A model generated the notes under the pieces. The model was given only the letters and a program-made list of their open reading frames with translations, did no database searches and was not told where the DNA came from. From Stegostoma tigrinum (taxonomy: Eukaryota): a DNA stretch of 64,000 bases. Numbering within the stretch: the stretch's first letter is position 1; every line of letters starts with the position of its first letter. Location of the stretch: the NCBI RefSeq assembly GCF_030684315.1, contig NC_081362.1:10844589-10908588 (forward strand), given 5' to 3'. Made by a program: the position numbers and the translations under genes. Below are positions 2,051-62,446 of this stretch, one piece after another.

Positions 2051-2148
2051 CTCTGATGAAGGGTCTAGGCCCACAATGTCAGCTTTTGTGCTCGTGAGAT
2101 GCTGCCTGGCCTGCTGTGTTCATCCAGCTTCACACTTTGTTATCTTAT
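2051..2148 (+). mobile_element. 98-bp PLE family-A mini-insertion (hammerhead core plus 3' end)
   Basis: Begins ctCTGATGAagggtctaggccc (GAAA mutated in this copy). 11-bp TSD ttcagataagg at 2040-2050 and 2149-2159. Confidence 0.85.
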
Positions 2149-2500
2149 TTCAGATAAGGAATTAGGAAGTTTTCAGTGGGGACATGGGATAAGGTGGTAG
2201 TTTTGGTCTTTCCAGTTTTGAAAGCTGAAGAAAATCAGAACTATGCCTAATAATTAGCCAGGTAATGCAGAAGAGGGATCAGGAAATGAAAATAAATGGA
2301 ACATAAAGAAGTATGCTCCATAGTTTTGGAAGCTATCACCAAAAAAGGTTGTTTGTAGATAATGGAAATACATTGGAAAAAGCAACAAAGGCCACTGTGG
2401 AAATGCCCTCATCAACGTTGCACAGATGATTGAGAGATTGATCGTGTCAAAGTTGCAACAAAAAAGTAGAAATAAAGTATCACTGATAAAGTGGAGACAT

Positions 2501-2588
2501 AAAAAACAAAAATAGAAATTGCTGGCAAAACTCAGCAAGTCTGCCAGCATATGTGGAGAGAAATTAGTCCAGTGACTATTCACTAGAA
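2501..2588 (-). mobile_element. PLE family-B terminal fragment (single arm, degenerate)
   Basis: aacaaaaatagaaattgctggcaaaactcagcaagtctgccagcatatgtggagag matches the arms of the 16.6, 23.3, 24.3 and 40.5 kb palindromes. Confidence 0.6.
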
Positions 2589-2752
2589 GTGCCCTGTGGT
2601 GTCTAGGTATGTGAAGGCTAGATGGATTAGCCATGGAAAATACAGGGTTACAGGGATGGGGTAGGGGCATGGATCTGGGTGGGTGGCTCTTGGAAGGATT
2701 AGTTGAACTCAATGGGCCAAATGGCCTACTTTCGCACCGCAGGGATTCTATA
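2589..2752 (+). mobile_element. 3' half of V-SINE/HE1-like SINE
   Basis: gtgccctgtggtgtctagg..gggtagggg..ggatctgggtggg..tgggccaaatggcct..agggattctat resembles the 3' parts of the SINEs at 14090-14170 and 24895-25210. Confidence 0.6.
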
Positions 2753-57709: not shown

Positions 57710-58365
57710 ATTCATAGACTCATAGAGCACAGCACAGTCCAAGATAACAAAGTGTGAAGCTGGATGAACAGAGCAGGCCAAGCAGCATCTCCGGAGCGCA
57801 AAAGCTGACGTTTTGGGCCTAGACCCTCCCATTATCACAGCACAGTCCAAAATGTCCATGCTGACCAGGTTTCCCAAACTAAACTAGTCCTTTTTGCCTG
57901 CGTTTGGCCCATATCCCTCTGAAGCTTTCTGATTCATGTACCTGTCCAACGCTGTATTTTCAATGTTGTAACTGTACCTGCATTTACCACCTCCTCTGGC
58001 AGTTCATTCCAAACGTCAACCACCCACTGTGTGAAAACATTGCCCTTCAGGTCCTTTTAAAATCTTTCTCTTCTTGCTTTAAAATGATTCCCTCTAGTTT
58101 TGAACTCATTCCCCCCTCCCCCCAAAAAGGGGAAAGGGTTTTGCTATTTACCTTATCCATGCCTCTCATGATTTTATAAACCTCAATAAGGTGAGCCTTC
58201 AATTTCCTGTGCTCCAGGGAAAAAAGTGCTAACCTATTTGGTCTCTCATTACAACTCAAAGCCTCCAGTCCTGGTAACATCTTAATAAATCTTCTCTGCA
58301 TCCTTTCCAATTTAATAATATCCTTCCTATAACAGGGCAGCCAGAACTGCACACAGTACTCCAAA
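57710..58365 (-). mobile_element. CR1 3' portion
   Basis: EYCVQFWLPCYRKDIIKLERMQRRFIKMLPGLEALS..LIEVYKIMRGMDKV. Confidence 0.88.
57743..57835 (-). mobile_element. 93-bp PLE family-A mini-insertion inside the CR1 tail
   Basis: Perfect 15-bp TSD cacagcacagtccaa at 57728-57742 / 57836-57850; ends in the inverted tail remnant tcccattat. Confidence 0.9.
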
Positions 58366-60332
58366 AATGTGAAATGTAAGTATTTTTGTGGAAAAGTGAC
58401 TGAAAGAACTTTCTACGTTTGTATTTCCTAAATAAGCTGTGACTGACAGCAATACATTAATAGTGACTTGGCCCACATATACAAGTATACCACATCTACA
58501 GACTTTGCTAGCTCTTCTCAAAGGCAAGGAAGATAAGGCCGAAAATATTGCAGTGATCAGAAAGTGTTTTTCTTTTAAAAGTGGACATCTACGGAGAGAA
58601 ATCAGTTTTCTCTTTCTTTTATCTGAAGAGTGTTTCTGAGCGTGTTTTGCATTATTTAGAGGGATAAACATCCATATTTTCATGCTACAATAATGCTTGT
58701 TGGCCTATTCTGCAATTTTATTGAATGGATTTTGTCCTACATTAAATCAATAATTTGGAGTTTACTAAAGAAAGCTAGTTGCTAGATATATTTGCTATAG
58801 GCCTAATGTAGAAAAATCATGTAATTGGACAGAGCAGGAGTTGGGTATAATATTTTTTATTCTATGTTGCAATCATGGAGTAGTGGGATCAGAGAGTCAG
58901 TGTATGCTTCCCACCTCAGTTGAAACAATAAGGATGGCAGATTTCCGTCCTACGGGAACATGAATGAGCTAGCTGGACTTGATTACAATCCAGATACTTC
59001 ATTATATCTTCTAGTAGCACCATCTTTTTGCTTTAATGTCTCAATCTCCAACTTATGAAGGAACAATTGGCATGAAATTTGAGGTCAGCATTGGATGAAC
59101 AGTGCCAAAGGATTCTGTGCATATTATTGTTTATGGCGACGGATTTGCAGAGATCAAAAAAATCTTATATTTGTCAATAAATTGTAGGGCATAAAAGTAC
59201 ATTTCCCACTTGTATTTAGCCAAATCAACACTCTGAGTTTAAAATATCTGCTTCTAAGTTTAATAATGATGAACCAATTGGAAAACACTTAAGACCCTGC
59301 CCCGGCCTCACCATTCAACTGAAAGACGCCTGGAAAGGTTTTTAATTAGCTGGTGGCTTCGAAAATCACACTGATGCAGAATTAATTTCCATGAATCTTA
59401 CAAGCAATCTCTTTCTTCATTCAACAGCAGTGTTCTCCTGAGAACTCAAAGTCAGATATGCAGCGTGACAATGAGTTCAATATTCCTGTTAGGCTCCATT
59501 TTGAGATTCAAAGTCTGTGCTACTATTTTATTTGGAACCACATAGAAATTACAGCACAGAAACTGGCCATTCAGTTTAACACTAGTGTTTATCCATAGTC
59601 CACACTGTTTACCCTCACTCTACTTTATTTAACCCTATCAACATCTCCATCTGTTACTTACTTCTATATACACGTTTCAGCCTTCTCCTTTTATCTTTGA
59701 TCACTTTATGTAGTAACAAGTTCCACATTTTAATAATTTTCCAACAATGGATTTTCTCCTGAACTTCTGTTAGATTCATTAACTGGTTATCTTATTCTGT
59801 ATTTATGGCCCTTATGTTCGAACACTCACACACGTGCAAGCATCTTCTGTGCATCTATTTCATCAAATGTCTTAGTGAGACGCATTTGTCAAAGTTTTTC
59901 AACATGCACGTATAGGGAAGAATTTGCAATGTAAAGGGGAAACAACTTTTCATCTTGTACGAGGTGGGAGCTAAATTGTTCCAAGTGGACTCTTATTGCT
60001 AATAGTGTTGCTGTGGCTAATGTACTATGTAAGGTGTTGATTGATAGTTAACTTCCAAACTTTATTTAAGTTCAAACCAGGCATATTGAATCAGATTGGT
60101 CAAGGTATTTCAGTGAGGAATGAACCAGAGAATGGCTGTCATTTACTTTGCTAACTGGAAACATGTACAATGTATGTACATGAGCTTTCTGCTTGCAAAG
60201 AATAAAGCCCAGTGGATTAATATATGCAGCTCCAGAAACGGCAAGCATGCCACAGTGCAAGCCTGACATATTACAATCTTAAATTGTTTGCCAGCATAAT
60301 TTTTAGCATACTCAGGACAATTCAGGGAACAC

Positions 60333-62446
60333 CAGATAACAAAGTGTGGGGCTGGGTGAACACAGCAGGCCAAGCAGCATCTTAGGAGCACAAAAGCTGA
60401 TGTTTCGGGCCTAGACCCTTCATCAGAAAAGAGGGATGGGGAGAGGATTCTGAAATAAATAGGGAGAGAGGGGGAGGCGGACCGAAGGTTGATAGAGGAG
60501 AAGATAGGTGGAGAGGAGAGTATGGGTGGGGAGGTAGGGAGGGGATAGGTCAGTCCGGGGAGGACGGGCGGATCAAGGGGGCAGGATGAGGTTAGTAGGT
60601 GGGAAATGGAAGCACGGCTTTAGGTGGGTGGAGGGGATACGGGAGAGGAAGAACAGGTTAGGGAGATGGGGACAAGCTGTGCTGGTTTTGGGATGCGGTG
60701 GGGGAAGGGGAGATTTTGAAGCTGGTGAAATCCACATTGATACCATTGGGCCGCAGGGTTCCCAAGCGGAATATGAGTTGCTGTTCCTGCAACCTTCAGG
60801 TGGCATCATTGTGGCACTGCAGGAGGCCCATGATGGACATGTCGTCTAAGGAATGGGAGGGAGAGTTGAAATGGTTCGTGACTGGGAGGTGCAGTTGTTT
60901 ATTGCAAACCGAGCGTAGGTGTTCTGCAAAGCAGTTCCCAAGCCTCCACTTGATTTCCCCAGTGTACAGGAAGCCCAACGGGAACAGCGGATACAGTATA
61001 CCACATTGGCAGATGTGCAGGTGAACATCTGCTTGATGTGGAAAGTCATCTTGGGGCCTGGGATGGGGGTGAGGGGGGAGGTGTGAGGGCAAGTGTAGCA
61101 CTTCCTGCAGTTGCAGGGGAAGGTGCCGGGTGTGGTGGGGTTGGAGGGGAGTGTGGAGCGGACAAGGGAGTCACGGAGAGAGTGGTCTTTCCGTAAGGCA
61201 GACAAGGGTGGGGATGGAAAAATGCTTTTGGTGGTGGGGTCGGATTGGAGATGGTGGAAGTGTTGGAGGATGATGCATTGTATCTGGAGATTGGTGGGGT
61301 GGTATGTGAGGACGAGAGGGATTCTGTTTTGGCGGTTATTGCGGGGGCGGGGTGTGCAGGATGAGTTGCGGAAAATGCGGGAGACACAGTTGACGGCGCT
61401 GTCGACCACCGCGGGGGGGATCTTGCGGTCCTTGAAGAACGAGGACATCTGGGATGTACAGGCGTGGAATGCCTCATCCTGGGAGCAGATGCGGCGGAGG
61501 CGAATGAATTGGGAATAGGGGATGGAATTTTTGCAGGAAGGTGGGTGGGAGGAGGTGTATTCTAGGTAGCTGTGGGAGTCGGTGGGCTTGAAATGGACCA
61601 GTTTCTAGCTGGTTGCCTGAGATGGAGACAAAGATGTCCAGGAAGATGAGGGATGTGTTGGAGATGGTCCAGGTGAACTTAAGGTTGGGTTGGAAGGTGT
61701 TGGTGAAGTGGATGAACTGTTCGAGCTCCTCTTGGGAACACGAGGCCGCGCCGATACAATCATCAATGTAATGGAGGAAGAGGTGGGATTTGGGGCCAGT
61801 GTAGGTGTGGAAGATGGACTGTTCCACCTAACCTACAAAGAGGCAGGCATAGCTTGGGCCCATGCGGGTACCCATAGCCACCCCTTTTGTCTGTAGGAAG
61901 TGGGAGGAATTGAAAGAGAAGTTGTTGAAGGTGAGGACAAGTTCGGCTAGGCAGATGAGTGTGTCGGTGGAGAGGGACTGGTCGGGTCTGCGGGACAGGA
62001 AGAAGCGGATGGCCTTTATGCCATCTGTATGGGGAATGCAGGTGGATAGGGACTGGATGTCCATGGTGAAAATGAGGTGTTGGGGACTGGGGAATTGGAA
62101 GTTCTGGAGGAGGTGGAGGGCGTGGGTGGTGTCACGGACGTAGGTAATGAGTTCCTGGACCAAGGGGGAGAAAATGGAGTCCAGATAGGTGGAGATGAGT
62201 TTGGTGGGGCAGGAGCAGGCGGAGACAATGGATTGACCAGGGCAGGCAGGTTTGTGGATTTTGGGAAGGAGATAGAAGCGGGCGGTGCGGGATTGGGGAA
62301 CAATGAGGTTGGAGGCTGTGAGTAGGAGGTCTAGCCCCAAAACATCAGCTTTTGTGCTCCTAAGATGCTGCTTGGCCTGCTGTGTTCAACCAGTTCCACA
62401 CTTTGTTATCTCGGATTTTCCAGCATCTGCAGTTCCCATTATCTCT
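60333..62446 (-). mobile_element. 5'-truncated Penelope-like element (family A) with disrupted ORF and inverted tailed arm (62330-62446)
   Basis: Collinear with the 42.5-44.6 kb copy; stop at 61828 and frameshifts. TSD attcagggaa(ca/tg)c at 60320-60332 / 62447-62459. Confidence 0.92.

What the first reader, a model, noticed from the sequence alone, without database searches (positions are those of the whole stretch)
2051..62446. Asymmetric two-ended architecture of hammerhead-bearing PLE insertions: one tailed end plus one tail-less end, set by a repeated TTATCTC
Seen: every clearly two-armed insertion is two element 3' ends pointing outward. This holds for family A (3079, 5323, 5374, 7073, 10837, 29680, 49039, 57743, 60333) and family B (16582, 23282, 24319, 40535). 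One end always carries the ~30-nt tail (..gcatctgcagttcccaTTATCTC) and the other stops ~30 nt earlier, at or just before ..cactttgTTATCTC; I found no tail/tail or tail-less/tail-less pair. Arm length varies from 7 nt to 2 kb, either arm can be the long one, and most copies have 10-15-bp TSDs. Established: PLEs have direct or inverted pLTRs with a short tail and carry minimal hammerheads. Inference: both cut target ends prime cDNA at two fixed, sequence-repeated sites of the RNA (programmed twin priming), and the cDNAs are joined by microhomology. This would generate the whole size range without a separate MITE mechanism.
Basis: partly seen in the sequence, partly recalled or inferred. Interest (0 to 1): 0.8.

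Follow-up and report, generated by a model that had tools for sequence, protein, structure and literature searches.

The report
Tail-paired two-armed Penelope insertions
Two-armed copies of Penelope-like jumping genes in this genome almost always pair one tailed end with one tail-less end inside a 14-16-base target duplication, a known layout whose strict pairing likely means that both cut DNA ends start copying on a single RNA molecule at two sites about 33 bases apart.

Summary
Observation confirmed and extended. All 13 named loci are tailed/tail-less. In 1.45 Mb sampled at round coordinates across the genome, 66 of 68 duplication-flanked two-armed family-A insertions pair one tailed with one tail-less end, against about 49% if ends were chosen independently. 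Junctions are nearly all different, so there are no fixed palindromic masters.

The layout (inverted arm, 30-40-nt tail at one end) and two internal start sites bounding the tail are published (PMC8557442, PMC3846280, PMC11167929). This scan has noted short two-armed Penelope insertions in other genomes.

Corrections: ends fall in two ~10-nt zones fine-tuned by 1-3-nt target microhomology. TTATCTC is not the general signal, since families B and C obey the rule without it. Tail-less/tail-less exceptions and single-armed copies exist. Junction microhomology is only partial.

Not found in eight literature searches: strict pairing, coupled arm lengths (p=2e-10), shared stop points, a mirror-symmetric A-rich target around a 14-16-bp stagger, and a common stop just upstream of the hammerhead that yields ~230-bp MITE-like copies. 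Best model: a symmetric (likely dimeric) enzyme primes both nicks on one RNA (0.6).

The parts
3079..4840 (.). Family A (A2) insertion: tailed arm 3079-4481 (-), 74-nt direct piece, tail-less arm 4570-4840 (+); duplication 3065-3078 / 4842-4855
5323..5607 (.). Family A insertion: tailed arm left, tail-less arm right, interrupted by the 5374 insertion; duplication 5308-5322 / 5604-5618
5374..5470 (.). Young family A insertion nested in the previous one: 7-nt arm (tailed type by one base) plus tail-less arm with hammerhead core at 5381; duplication 5360-5373 / 5469-5482
7073..7289 (.). Tail-less arm of 195 nt (-) plus 25-nt tailed arm (+); duplication 7063-7072 / 7294-7303
10837..11056 (.). Tail-less arm (-) plus tail-only arm (+) starting at the tail-less site; duplication 10823-10840 / 11057-11074
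29683..30448 (.). Tailed arm (-) plus tail-less arm (+), A2 type; no convincing duplication
49039..49260 (.). Tail-less arm (-) plus tailed arm (+), A2 type; 14-bp duplication with 2 mismatches
57744..57836 (.). Tail-less arm of 90 nt (-) plus 9-nt tailed arm; duplication 57728-57742 / 57836-57850
60334..62446 (.). Tail-less arm of 1,999 nt (-, decayed RT-endonuclease frame) plus tailed arm of 120 nt (+); duplication 60320-60329 / 62447-62456
62413..62445 (+). The 33-nt tail, between TTATCTC at 62406-62412 and TTATCTC at 62439-62445; in uninterrupted copies elsewhere it reads on in frame as the start of the element's protein gene
48796..48823 (+). Minimal hammerhead core CTGATGA - stem II - GAAACGTC (example copy); starts at -127, predicted cut after -100
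   Evidence: cleavage not tested
43012..44637 (-). 542-aa open frame of family A: RT, CX4CxxC linker, GIY-YIG endonuclease with CCHH motif (Neptune/Nematis type)
   Evidence: motif definitions from PMC8557442 passages
42527..44637 (-). Single-armed tailed copy, 2.1 kb, with exact 14-bp duplication 42511-42524 / 44635-44648
2051..2146 (+). Single-armed tail-less copy, 11-bp duplication, begins 2 nt before the hammerhead core
54414..54508 (+). Single-armed tail-less copy, duplicated flank, begins at -131
48637..48922 (+). Single-armed tailed copy, no convincing duplication
9937..10196 (+). Single-armed tail-less copy, 8-bp repeat only
16582..16816 (.). Family B insertion, tail-less left, tailed right; duplication weak
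23284..23510 (.). Family B insertion, tailed left, tail-less right; 12-bp duplication with 1 mismatch
24319..24546 (.). Family B insertion, tailed left, tail-less right; 9-10-bp duplication
40541..40742 (.). Family B insertion, tail-less left, tailed right; 13-bp duplication with 1 mismatch

Best explanation
These are insertions of Neptune-type Penelope-like retroelements in which both strands of the target were cut 14-16 bases apart, and each cut end likely started reverse transcription on the same element RNA, one at the far side of the 33-base tail and one at its near side. Shown: the pairing, the stagger, the mirror-symmetric A-rich target, the two end zones, the 1-3-base match between target ends and the RNA, the coupled arm lengths and the mostly unique junctions. 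Inferred: a two-fold symmetric (dimeric) enzyme holds one RNA with one start zone in each active site. The tail-less copy leads and the tailed copy follows by displacing it, both tend to stop at the same RNA 5' end, and host end-joining (microhomology, blunt or templated insertion) fuses the two cDNA ends. Priming near the 5' end of a transcript that would begin at about -131 gives the ~230-bp MITE-like class; priming in a downstream repeat gives long arms. If only one end primes, a single-armed copy results.
For: 66 of 68 duplication-flanked pairs are T/N versus 49% expected from the 78 N: 59 T unpaired arms (p=8e-20 computed counting L163 as T/N, 67 of 68). Duplications are 14-16 bp in 41 of 66. 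A at 7 nt outside the duplication on both sides: 34 of 55 and 39 of 55, background 29%. Target-RNA match at 108 ends: mean 1.70 nt versus 0.48 in permutations, maximum 0.81. Arm lengths are coupled: both long 12, mixed 3, both short 51, p=2e-10. 4 of 14 long pairs stop within 12 nt of each other, permutation P=0.00035. The partner arm is the nearest sequence for 11 of 16 long arms, about 1 expected. Both sites give single-armed copies with duplications (14 N, 6 T), so both are priming sites. The N arm reaches >40 nt further 5' in 11 pairs and the T arm in 3. Same rule in family B (15 T/N of 21 pairs) and in Poseidon-type family C (7 clear T/N, no clear same-type pair, of 10 pairs listed). In vitro, a lizard element cuts and extends both strands, starts at two sites bounding the tail and is predicted to be a dimer (PMC11167929).
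Against: The arms usually overlap, so one RNA stretch would have to be copied twice; strand displacement by this enzyme is untested. No pile-up of tailed arms at the tail-less site, as a collision would give (3 of 65). N/N insertions with duplications exist (L037 in family A, L142 in family B), and two T/T pairs without duplication (L108, L141). Nearest-partner similarity could reflect a common source locus, subfamily age or later gene conversion; it was 7 of 28 over a shorter span and uninformative for short arms (2 of 66). Junction microhomology is modest. Everything here is read from fixed, mutated copies; later deletion at palindrome centres cannot be excluded.
Confidence: 0.6

Rival explanations
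1. Twin priming on two RNA copies (two molecules from one source, or the two terminal repeats of a tandem transcript, perhaps paired through the palindromic ACGT of the minimal hammerhead), held by an asymmetric complex in which one subunit always starts at the tailed site and the other at the tail-less site.
For: Explains overlapping arms without strand displacement and the lack of a collision peak. Mixed cases such as window 60334 (N -2032, T -117) fit one short and one long repeat. Dimer folding of minimal hammerheads is recalled, not tested.
Against: Does not predict that both arms stop at the same point (4 of 14). A tandem transcript predicts mostly short/long mixes, which are 3 of 66. 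Needs an extra assumption for the strict asymmetry.
Confidence: 0.22
2. Single priming at the tailed site, fold-back of the cDNA on itself, and resolution by template switch or endonuclease cutting at the tail-less site; the tail as a product of endonuclease resolution is the suggestion in PMC8557442.
For: Explains strict pairing, same-source arms and near-symmetric hairpin junctions such as L116 and L043. Palindromic turn points recur (CTAG, TCATCAGATGA).
Against: A fold-back arm cannot reach further 5' than its template, yet the tail-less arm does so by >40 nt in 11 pairs versus 3, and by up to 774 nt; it also reaches further in at least 3 of the 4 near-symmetric long pairs. Tail-less single-armed copies with duplications are common (14). 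Rescue needs frequent later one-sided deletions.
Confidence: 0.13
3. The short hairpin copies are a MITE-like family copied from a few fixed palindromic masters.
For: 51 of 66 insertions fall in one short size class; 16 of 4,851 locus pairs share a junction at >=21 of 24 nt.
Against: Only L038/L169 share an identical junction, and they share flanks and a neighbouring element too, so they are a duplicated region. The other near-matches sit in the crowded stop zone or at palindromes and span different ages. The size class follows from a shared stop at -127..-133.
Confidence: 0.05

Closest known systems
Insertion units of endonuclease-positive Penelope-like elements (Pen2a_Av of Adineta vaga, PMC3846280; general scheme in PMC8557442 Fig. 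2 legend)
   Same: Inverted 5'-truncated copy, 30-40-nt tail often at only one end, tail overlapping the first codons of the protein gene, target duplication, hammerhead in the terminal repeat.
   Different: The passages read call the tail optional and give no counts or pairing rule. Duplications here are 14-16 bp against 8-10 bp there. PMC8557442 ascribes the tail to endonuclease resolution of an intermediate.
PAc (Poseidon of Anolis carolinensis) in vitro mechanism, PMC11167929
   Same: Two internal start sites bounding the tail inside the start of the protein gene; both strands cut and extended; predicted dimer; hammerhead cleavage not needed.
   Different: PAc is Poseidon-clade with an AC-rich start region (like family C here); family A is Neptune/Nematis-type with T-rich sites. 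The main text reports no strand difference in start site and does not treat inverted two-armed products, duplications or complementary use of the two sites. [quoted passage not shown] Its supplements were not seen.
LINE-1 twin priming (recalled from own knowledge; not read here)
   Same: Both target strands prime cDNA on one RNA, giving an inverted arm joined by short microhomology inside a target duplication.
   Different: In L1 the second priming is at a variable internal site and the arms do not overlap; here both sites are programmed, about 33 nt apart, and the arms copy the same stretch.
Non-LTR retrozymes (bioRxiv 10.64898/2026.07.22.740005: abstract and passages)
   Same: Short hammerhead-bearing tandem derivatives of Penelope-like terminal repeats, like the 301-nt unit at L048.
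   Different: The insertions studied here are mostly head-to-head truncated arms, not tandem arrays.

Membership tests
Endonuclease-positive Penelope-like elements | One frame with RT followed by a GIY-YIG endonuclease | tested here: met
   542-aa frame 43012-44637(-): RVT_1 E=2.4e-05, GIY-YIG E=0.00094 (0.00014 alone), both below Pfam's cut-off
Endonuclease-positive Penelope-like elements | [quoted passage not shown] | tested here: met
   VVYCIHCTRCGFLYIG ... FAEH ... NHFH; definition from PMC8557442
Endonuclease-positive Penelope-like elements | Terminal repeat runs into the start of the protein gene (partial tandem), optional 30-40-nt tail | tested here: met
   Continuation beyond the tail in L002 and L080 translates in frame from an ATG upstream of the tail-less site; 33-nt tail
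Endonuclease-positive Penelope-like elements | Hammerhead motif in the terminal repeat | tested here: inconclusive
   Core CTGAnGA, stem II and GAAAC kept across A and B. No Rfam hammerhead match up to E=1; the alignment fold did not recover it; cleavage not testable.
Neptune clade | CX2-5CxxC linker before the endonuclease | tested here: met
   FPCNHRKCYTC in family A; absent from family C, whose linker has no cysteine
Neptune clade | RT phylogeny placing it with Neptune and not Nematis | not tested
   No reference set available; the homologue search timed out
LINE-1-type twin priming | Non-overlapping arms, second priming at a variable site | tested here: not met
   Arms overlap in nearly all pairs; only 3 of 65 short tailed arms stop at the tail-less site
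LINE-1-type twin priming | Both cDNAs made on one RNA molecule | tested here: inconclusive
   Coupled lengths, shared stops and same-source arms favour it; direct proof needs an assay
MITE | Many copies of one fixed element with the same internal junction | tested here: not met
   Junctions of 99 pairs nearly all differ

The most novel reading that the evidence does not exclude
Programmed twin priming is the normal insertion route of Penelope-like elements across clades. A symmetric dimer cuts a mirror-symmetric site with a 14-16-base stagger and starts two reverse transcriptases on one RNA, 33 bases apart, the second displacing the first. This single step accounts for the tail, the inverted arm and the MITE-like size class, whose edge marks the element's capped transcription start.
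Probability: 0.5. Interest if true: 0.72.

Novelty: new member of a known kind. Interest (0 to 1): 0.48.

Why it matters
How Penelope-like elements make their inverted structures and one-sided tail is named as open in PMC8557442 and PMC11167929. The counts here turn a descriptive 'optional tail' into a near-obligate pairing rule in three families of two clades. They also give specific predictions (one RNA, two start zones, 14-16-base stagger, symmetric target) that the existing in vitro system can test directly. For annotation, the many ~230-bp hairpin repeats of this genome are retroelement dead ends, not DNA-transposon MITEs.

Tried and rejected
TTATCTC as the universal signal: rejected, families B and C lack it. 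Hammerhead cleavage as the main source of arm 5' ends: not supported here; among 324 arms the bins around the predicted cut (-100) hold 5-9 arms each against 34-51 at -135..-126. Collision of the tailed copy with the tail-less primer: no pile-up, 3 of 65. An RNA structure framing the two start zones: a 7-bp complement (GATGCTG/CAGCATC) is invariant in all four subfamily majorities, so it shows no covariation. The alignment fold gave only a weak hairpin of -2.7 kcal/mol upstream of the tail-less site, with one pair changed on both sides in family B; undecided. Apparent T/T pairs L117 and L011, and N/N at L011, were artefacts of hit merging or nesting. Exact junction calling was confounded by substitutions in 20 of 32 cases. 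Rfam: no hammerhead match. Solved structures: no match up to E=1. Homologue search timed out. Sequencing runs: no RNA holder listed. No fold or complex prediction was run, as no intact full-length protein was in hand.
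Full report
WHAT THE WINDOW HOLDS. The window lies at G000:C11:10844589-10908588 in a 3.2-Gb genome. Family A is a Penelope-like element: the frame 43012-44637(-) has RT and GIY-YIG matches, a CX4CxxC linker and the CCHH motif, which PMC8557442 gives for Neptune and Nematis and not for Poseidon (passages). 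Family B is an older sister of A, alignable over the last 135 nt. A third family, C (window 7656-8123), has a cysteine-free linker and AC-rich ends, so it is Poseidon-type by that motif. Uninterrupted copies (L002, L080) show that the tail reads on into the start of the protein gene, so both ends are internal start points on a longer RNA. Positions below count from the last C of the tail motif (0).

OBSERVATION. All 13 named loci are one tailed (T) plus one tail-less (N) end pointing outward; 10 of 13 have a clear duplication. The 7-nt arm at 5374 is typed on one base. Single-armed copies with duplications also occur (2051, 42527, 54414).

GENOME TEST. I took 145 stretches of 10 kb at round coordinates on the large contigs. 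3' ends are bimodal. Of 104 adjacent inverted pairs, 89 could be scored: 82 T/N, 3 T/T, 2 N/N, 2 other. 68 of 89 had a duplication scoring >=9, against 22 of 2,000 mismatched controls. Of those 68, 66 are T/N, one is N/N (L037) and one (L163) I read as a tailed end with an internal deletion. By eye, 'T/T' L117 is T/N with a duplication; L108 and L141 are real T/T without one, as is L003 among the 30 loci picked by similarity. Recombination between two insertions or target loss could make these; that is untested. Unpaired arms are 78 N and 59 T, so independent choice would give 49% T/N. Among 123 scorable unpaired arms, 29 had a duplication: 20 were truly single (14 N, 6 T), 5 were T arms with a very short N-type partner, and 4 could not be typed. 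Family B gave 15 T/N, 2 N/N (L142 convincing, L048 doubtful) and 4 untyped of 21 pairs. Family C gave 7 clear T/N, one N with a partial tail and two unscorable of 10 pairs listed, one more lying at a stretch edge. The rule is near-obligate, not absolute, and does not depend on TTATCTC.

HOW THE ENDS ARE SET. T ends spread from -5 to +13 and N ends mostly from -40 to -32. The target end matches the RNA continuation by 1.70 nt on average at 108 of 132 ends that could be aligned, against 0.48 in permutations. Duplications are 14-16 bp in 41 of 66. The empty sites are mirror-symmetric: A peaks 7-8 and 3 nt outside the duplication on both sides (A at -7 in 73 of 110, p=9e-16, 55 sites with 12-17-bp duplications). 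This is independent genomic evidence for a two-fold symmetric cutter.

HOW THE ARMS RELATE. Junctions of 99 T/N pairs (82 random, 17 from picked loci) nearly all differ. The one identical pair, L038/L169, shares flanks and is a duplicated region; 15 other near-matches lie mostly in the crowded stop zone or at palindromes. Arm lengths are coupled (12 both long, 3 mixed, 51 both short; p=2e-10), and 4 of 14 long pairs stop within 12 nt of each other (P=0.00035). The partner is the nearest sequence for 11 of 16 arms over -430..-45, 7 of 28 over -215..-45, and 2 of 66 short young arms, where ties make the test uninformative. The N arm reaches >40 nt further 5' in 11 pairs and the T arm in 3, which a fold-back from the tailed end cannot give without later deletion. 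Against a simple L1-like picture, the arms overlap and tailed arms do not pile up at the N site (3 of 65). Of 32 well-preserved junctions, 12 were clean (6 with >=2 nt shared, 16% expected; 4 blunt); 20 scored as insertions, some of them templated and many confounded by substitutions.

THE SHORT CLASS. In the young subfamily, 62 arms read through the hammerhead and 24 stop within 14 nt upstream of its core, 23 of them at -127..-133 (all loci held). The stop is not at the predicted ribozyme cut at -100. A G follows the last templated base in 5 of 7 stops at -131, as copying of a cap would give; this is a post-hoc hint, and a polymerase block at the C-rich tract is an equal reading.

MECHANISM. 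Best reading (0.6): both nicks of a 14-16-nt staggered cut prime on one RNA, one in each zone; the N copy leads, the T copy displaces it, both tend to run to the same 5' end, and end-joining fuses them. Rivals: two RNAs in an asymmetric complex (0.22), fold-back with resolution (0.13), fixed masters (0.05). The dimer, the single RNA, the displacement and the transcription start are inferred.

WHAT IS KNOWN. PMC8557442 (passages) states that an inverted truncated copy is often adjacent and that the 30-40-bp tail is often at only one end. PMC3846280 (parts 1-3 of 5) describes the same with 8-10-bp duplications. PMC11167929 (parts 1-2 of 4 and passages; supplements not seen, and they may bear on pairing) shows two start sites bounding the tail, cutting and extension of both strands, and a predicted dimer. 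The retrozyme preprint was seen as abstract, outline and passages. L1 twin priming is recalled. Eight searches showed no paper, by listing, that states the pairing rule or twin priming for these elements; most subscription papers, including the older Penelope reviews, are not in that library. Earlier notes of this scan describe short two-armed Penelope insertions in other genomes.

VERDICT. A real and general feature of a known class. The anatomy is published; the strict pairing, arm coupling, symmetric target and shared stop are added evidence for a specific, testable model. Interest 0.48.

Noticed in passing
L048:4982-6183 (G000:C22): Two-armed insertion of a 301-nt tandem unit (hammerhead, tail and 100 nt of the gene start), with a 15-bp duplication read by eye. 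The tailed arm begins at a tail-less site and the tail-less arm stops about 7 nt past a tailed site, as if each cDNA ran round a circular RNA to the other primer. One case only.
   Followed up: partly
L022:1671-1934 and L105:6-294: A second internally deleted derivative with the same deletion junction in two loci, suggesting a small non-autonomous family.
   Followed up: no
window 7656-8123: Fragment of a Poseidon-type Penelope-like family (C) with a decayed hammerhead and a tail-less end; its two-armed copies elsewhere also pair tailed with tail-less ends.
   Followed up: yes
L002:1501-2106: Insertion with a 12-bp duplication that ends about 490 nt beyond the tail, inside the protein gene: a rare start outside both zones.
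   Followed up: partly
window 5374, L011:1501, L026:2649: Young copies inserted at or next to the tail-less site of older copies, suggesting that the element's own end is a favoured target.
   Followed up: no
window 45240-46958 (-): 572-aa acidic open frame, probably a host exon; it resembles chromogranin B by recall only.
   Followed up: partly
window 49924-50040: Old, diverged hairpin element related to family B; ends not typed.
   Followed up: no
window 12809-14406, 24976-25130, 58047-58412: Fragments that look like CR1-type LINE and SINE repeats (label from recall).
   Followed up: no
L088:1138-1271: Two young tailed ends of separate insertions face each other about 37 bp apart.
   Followed up: no
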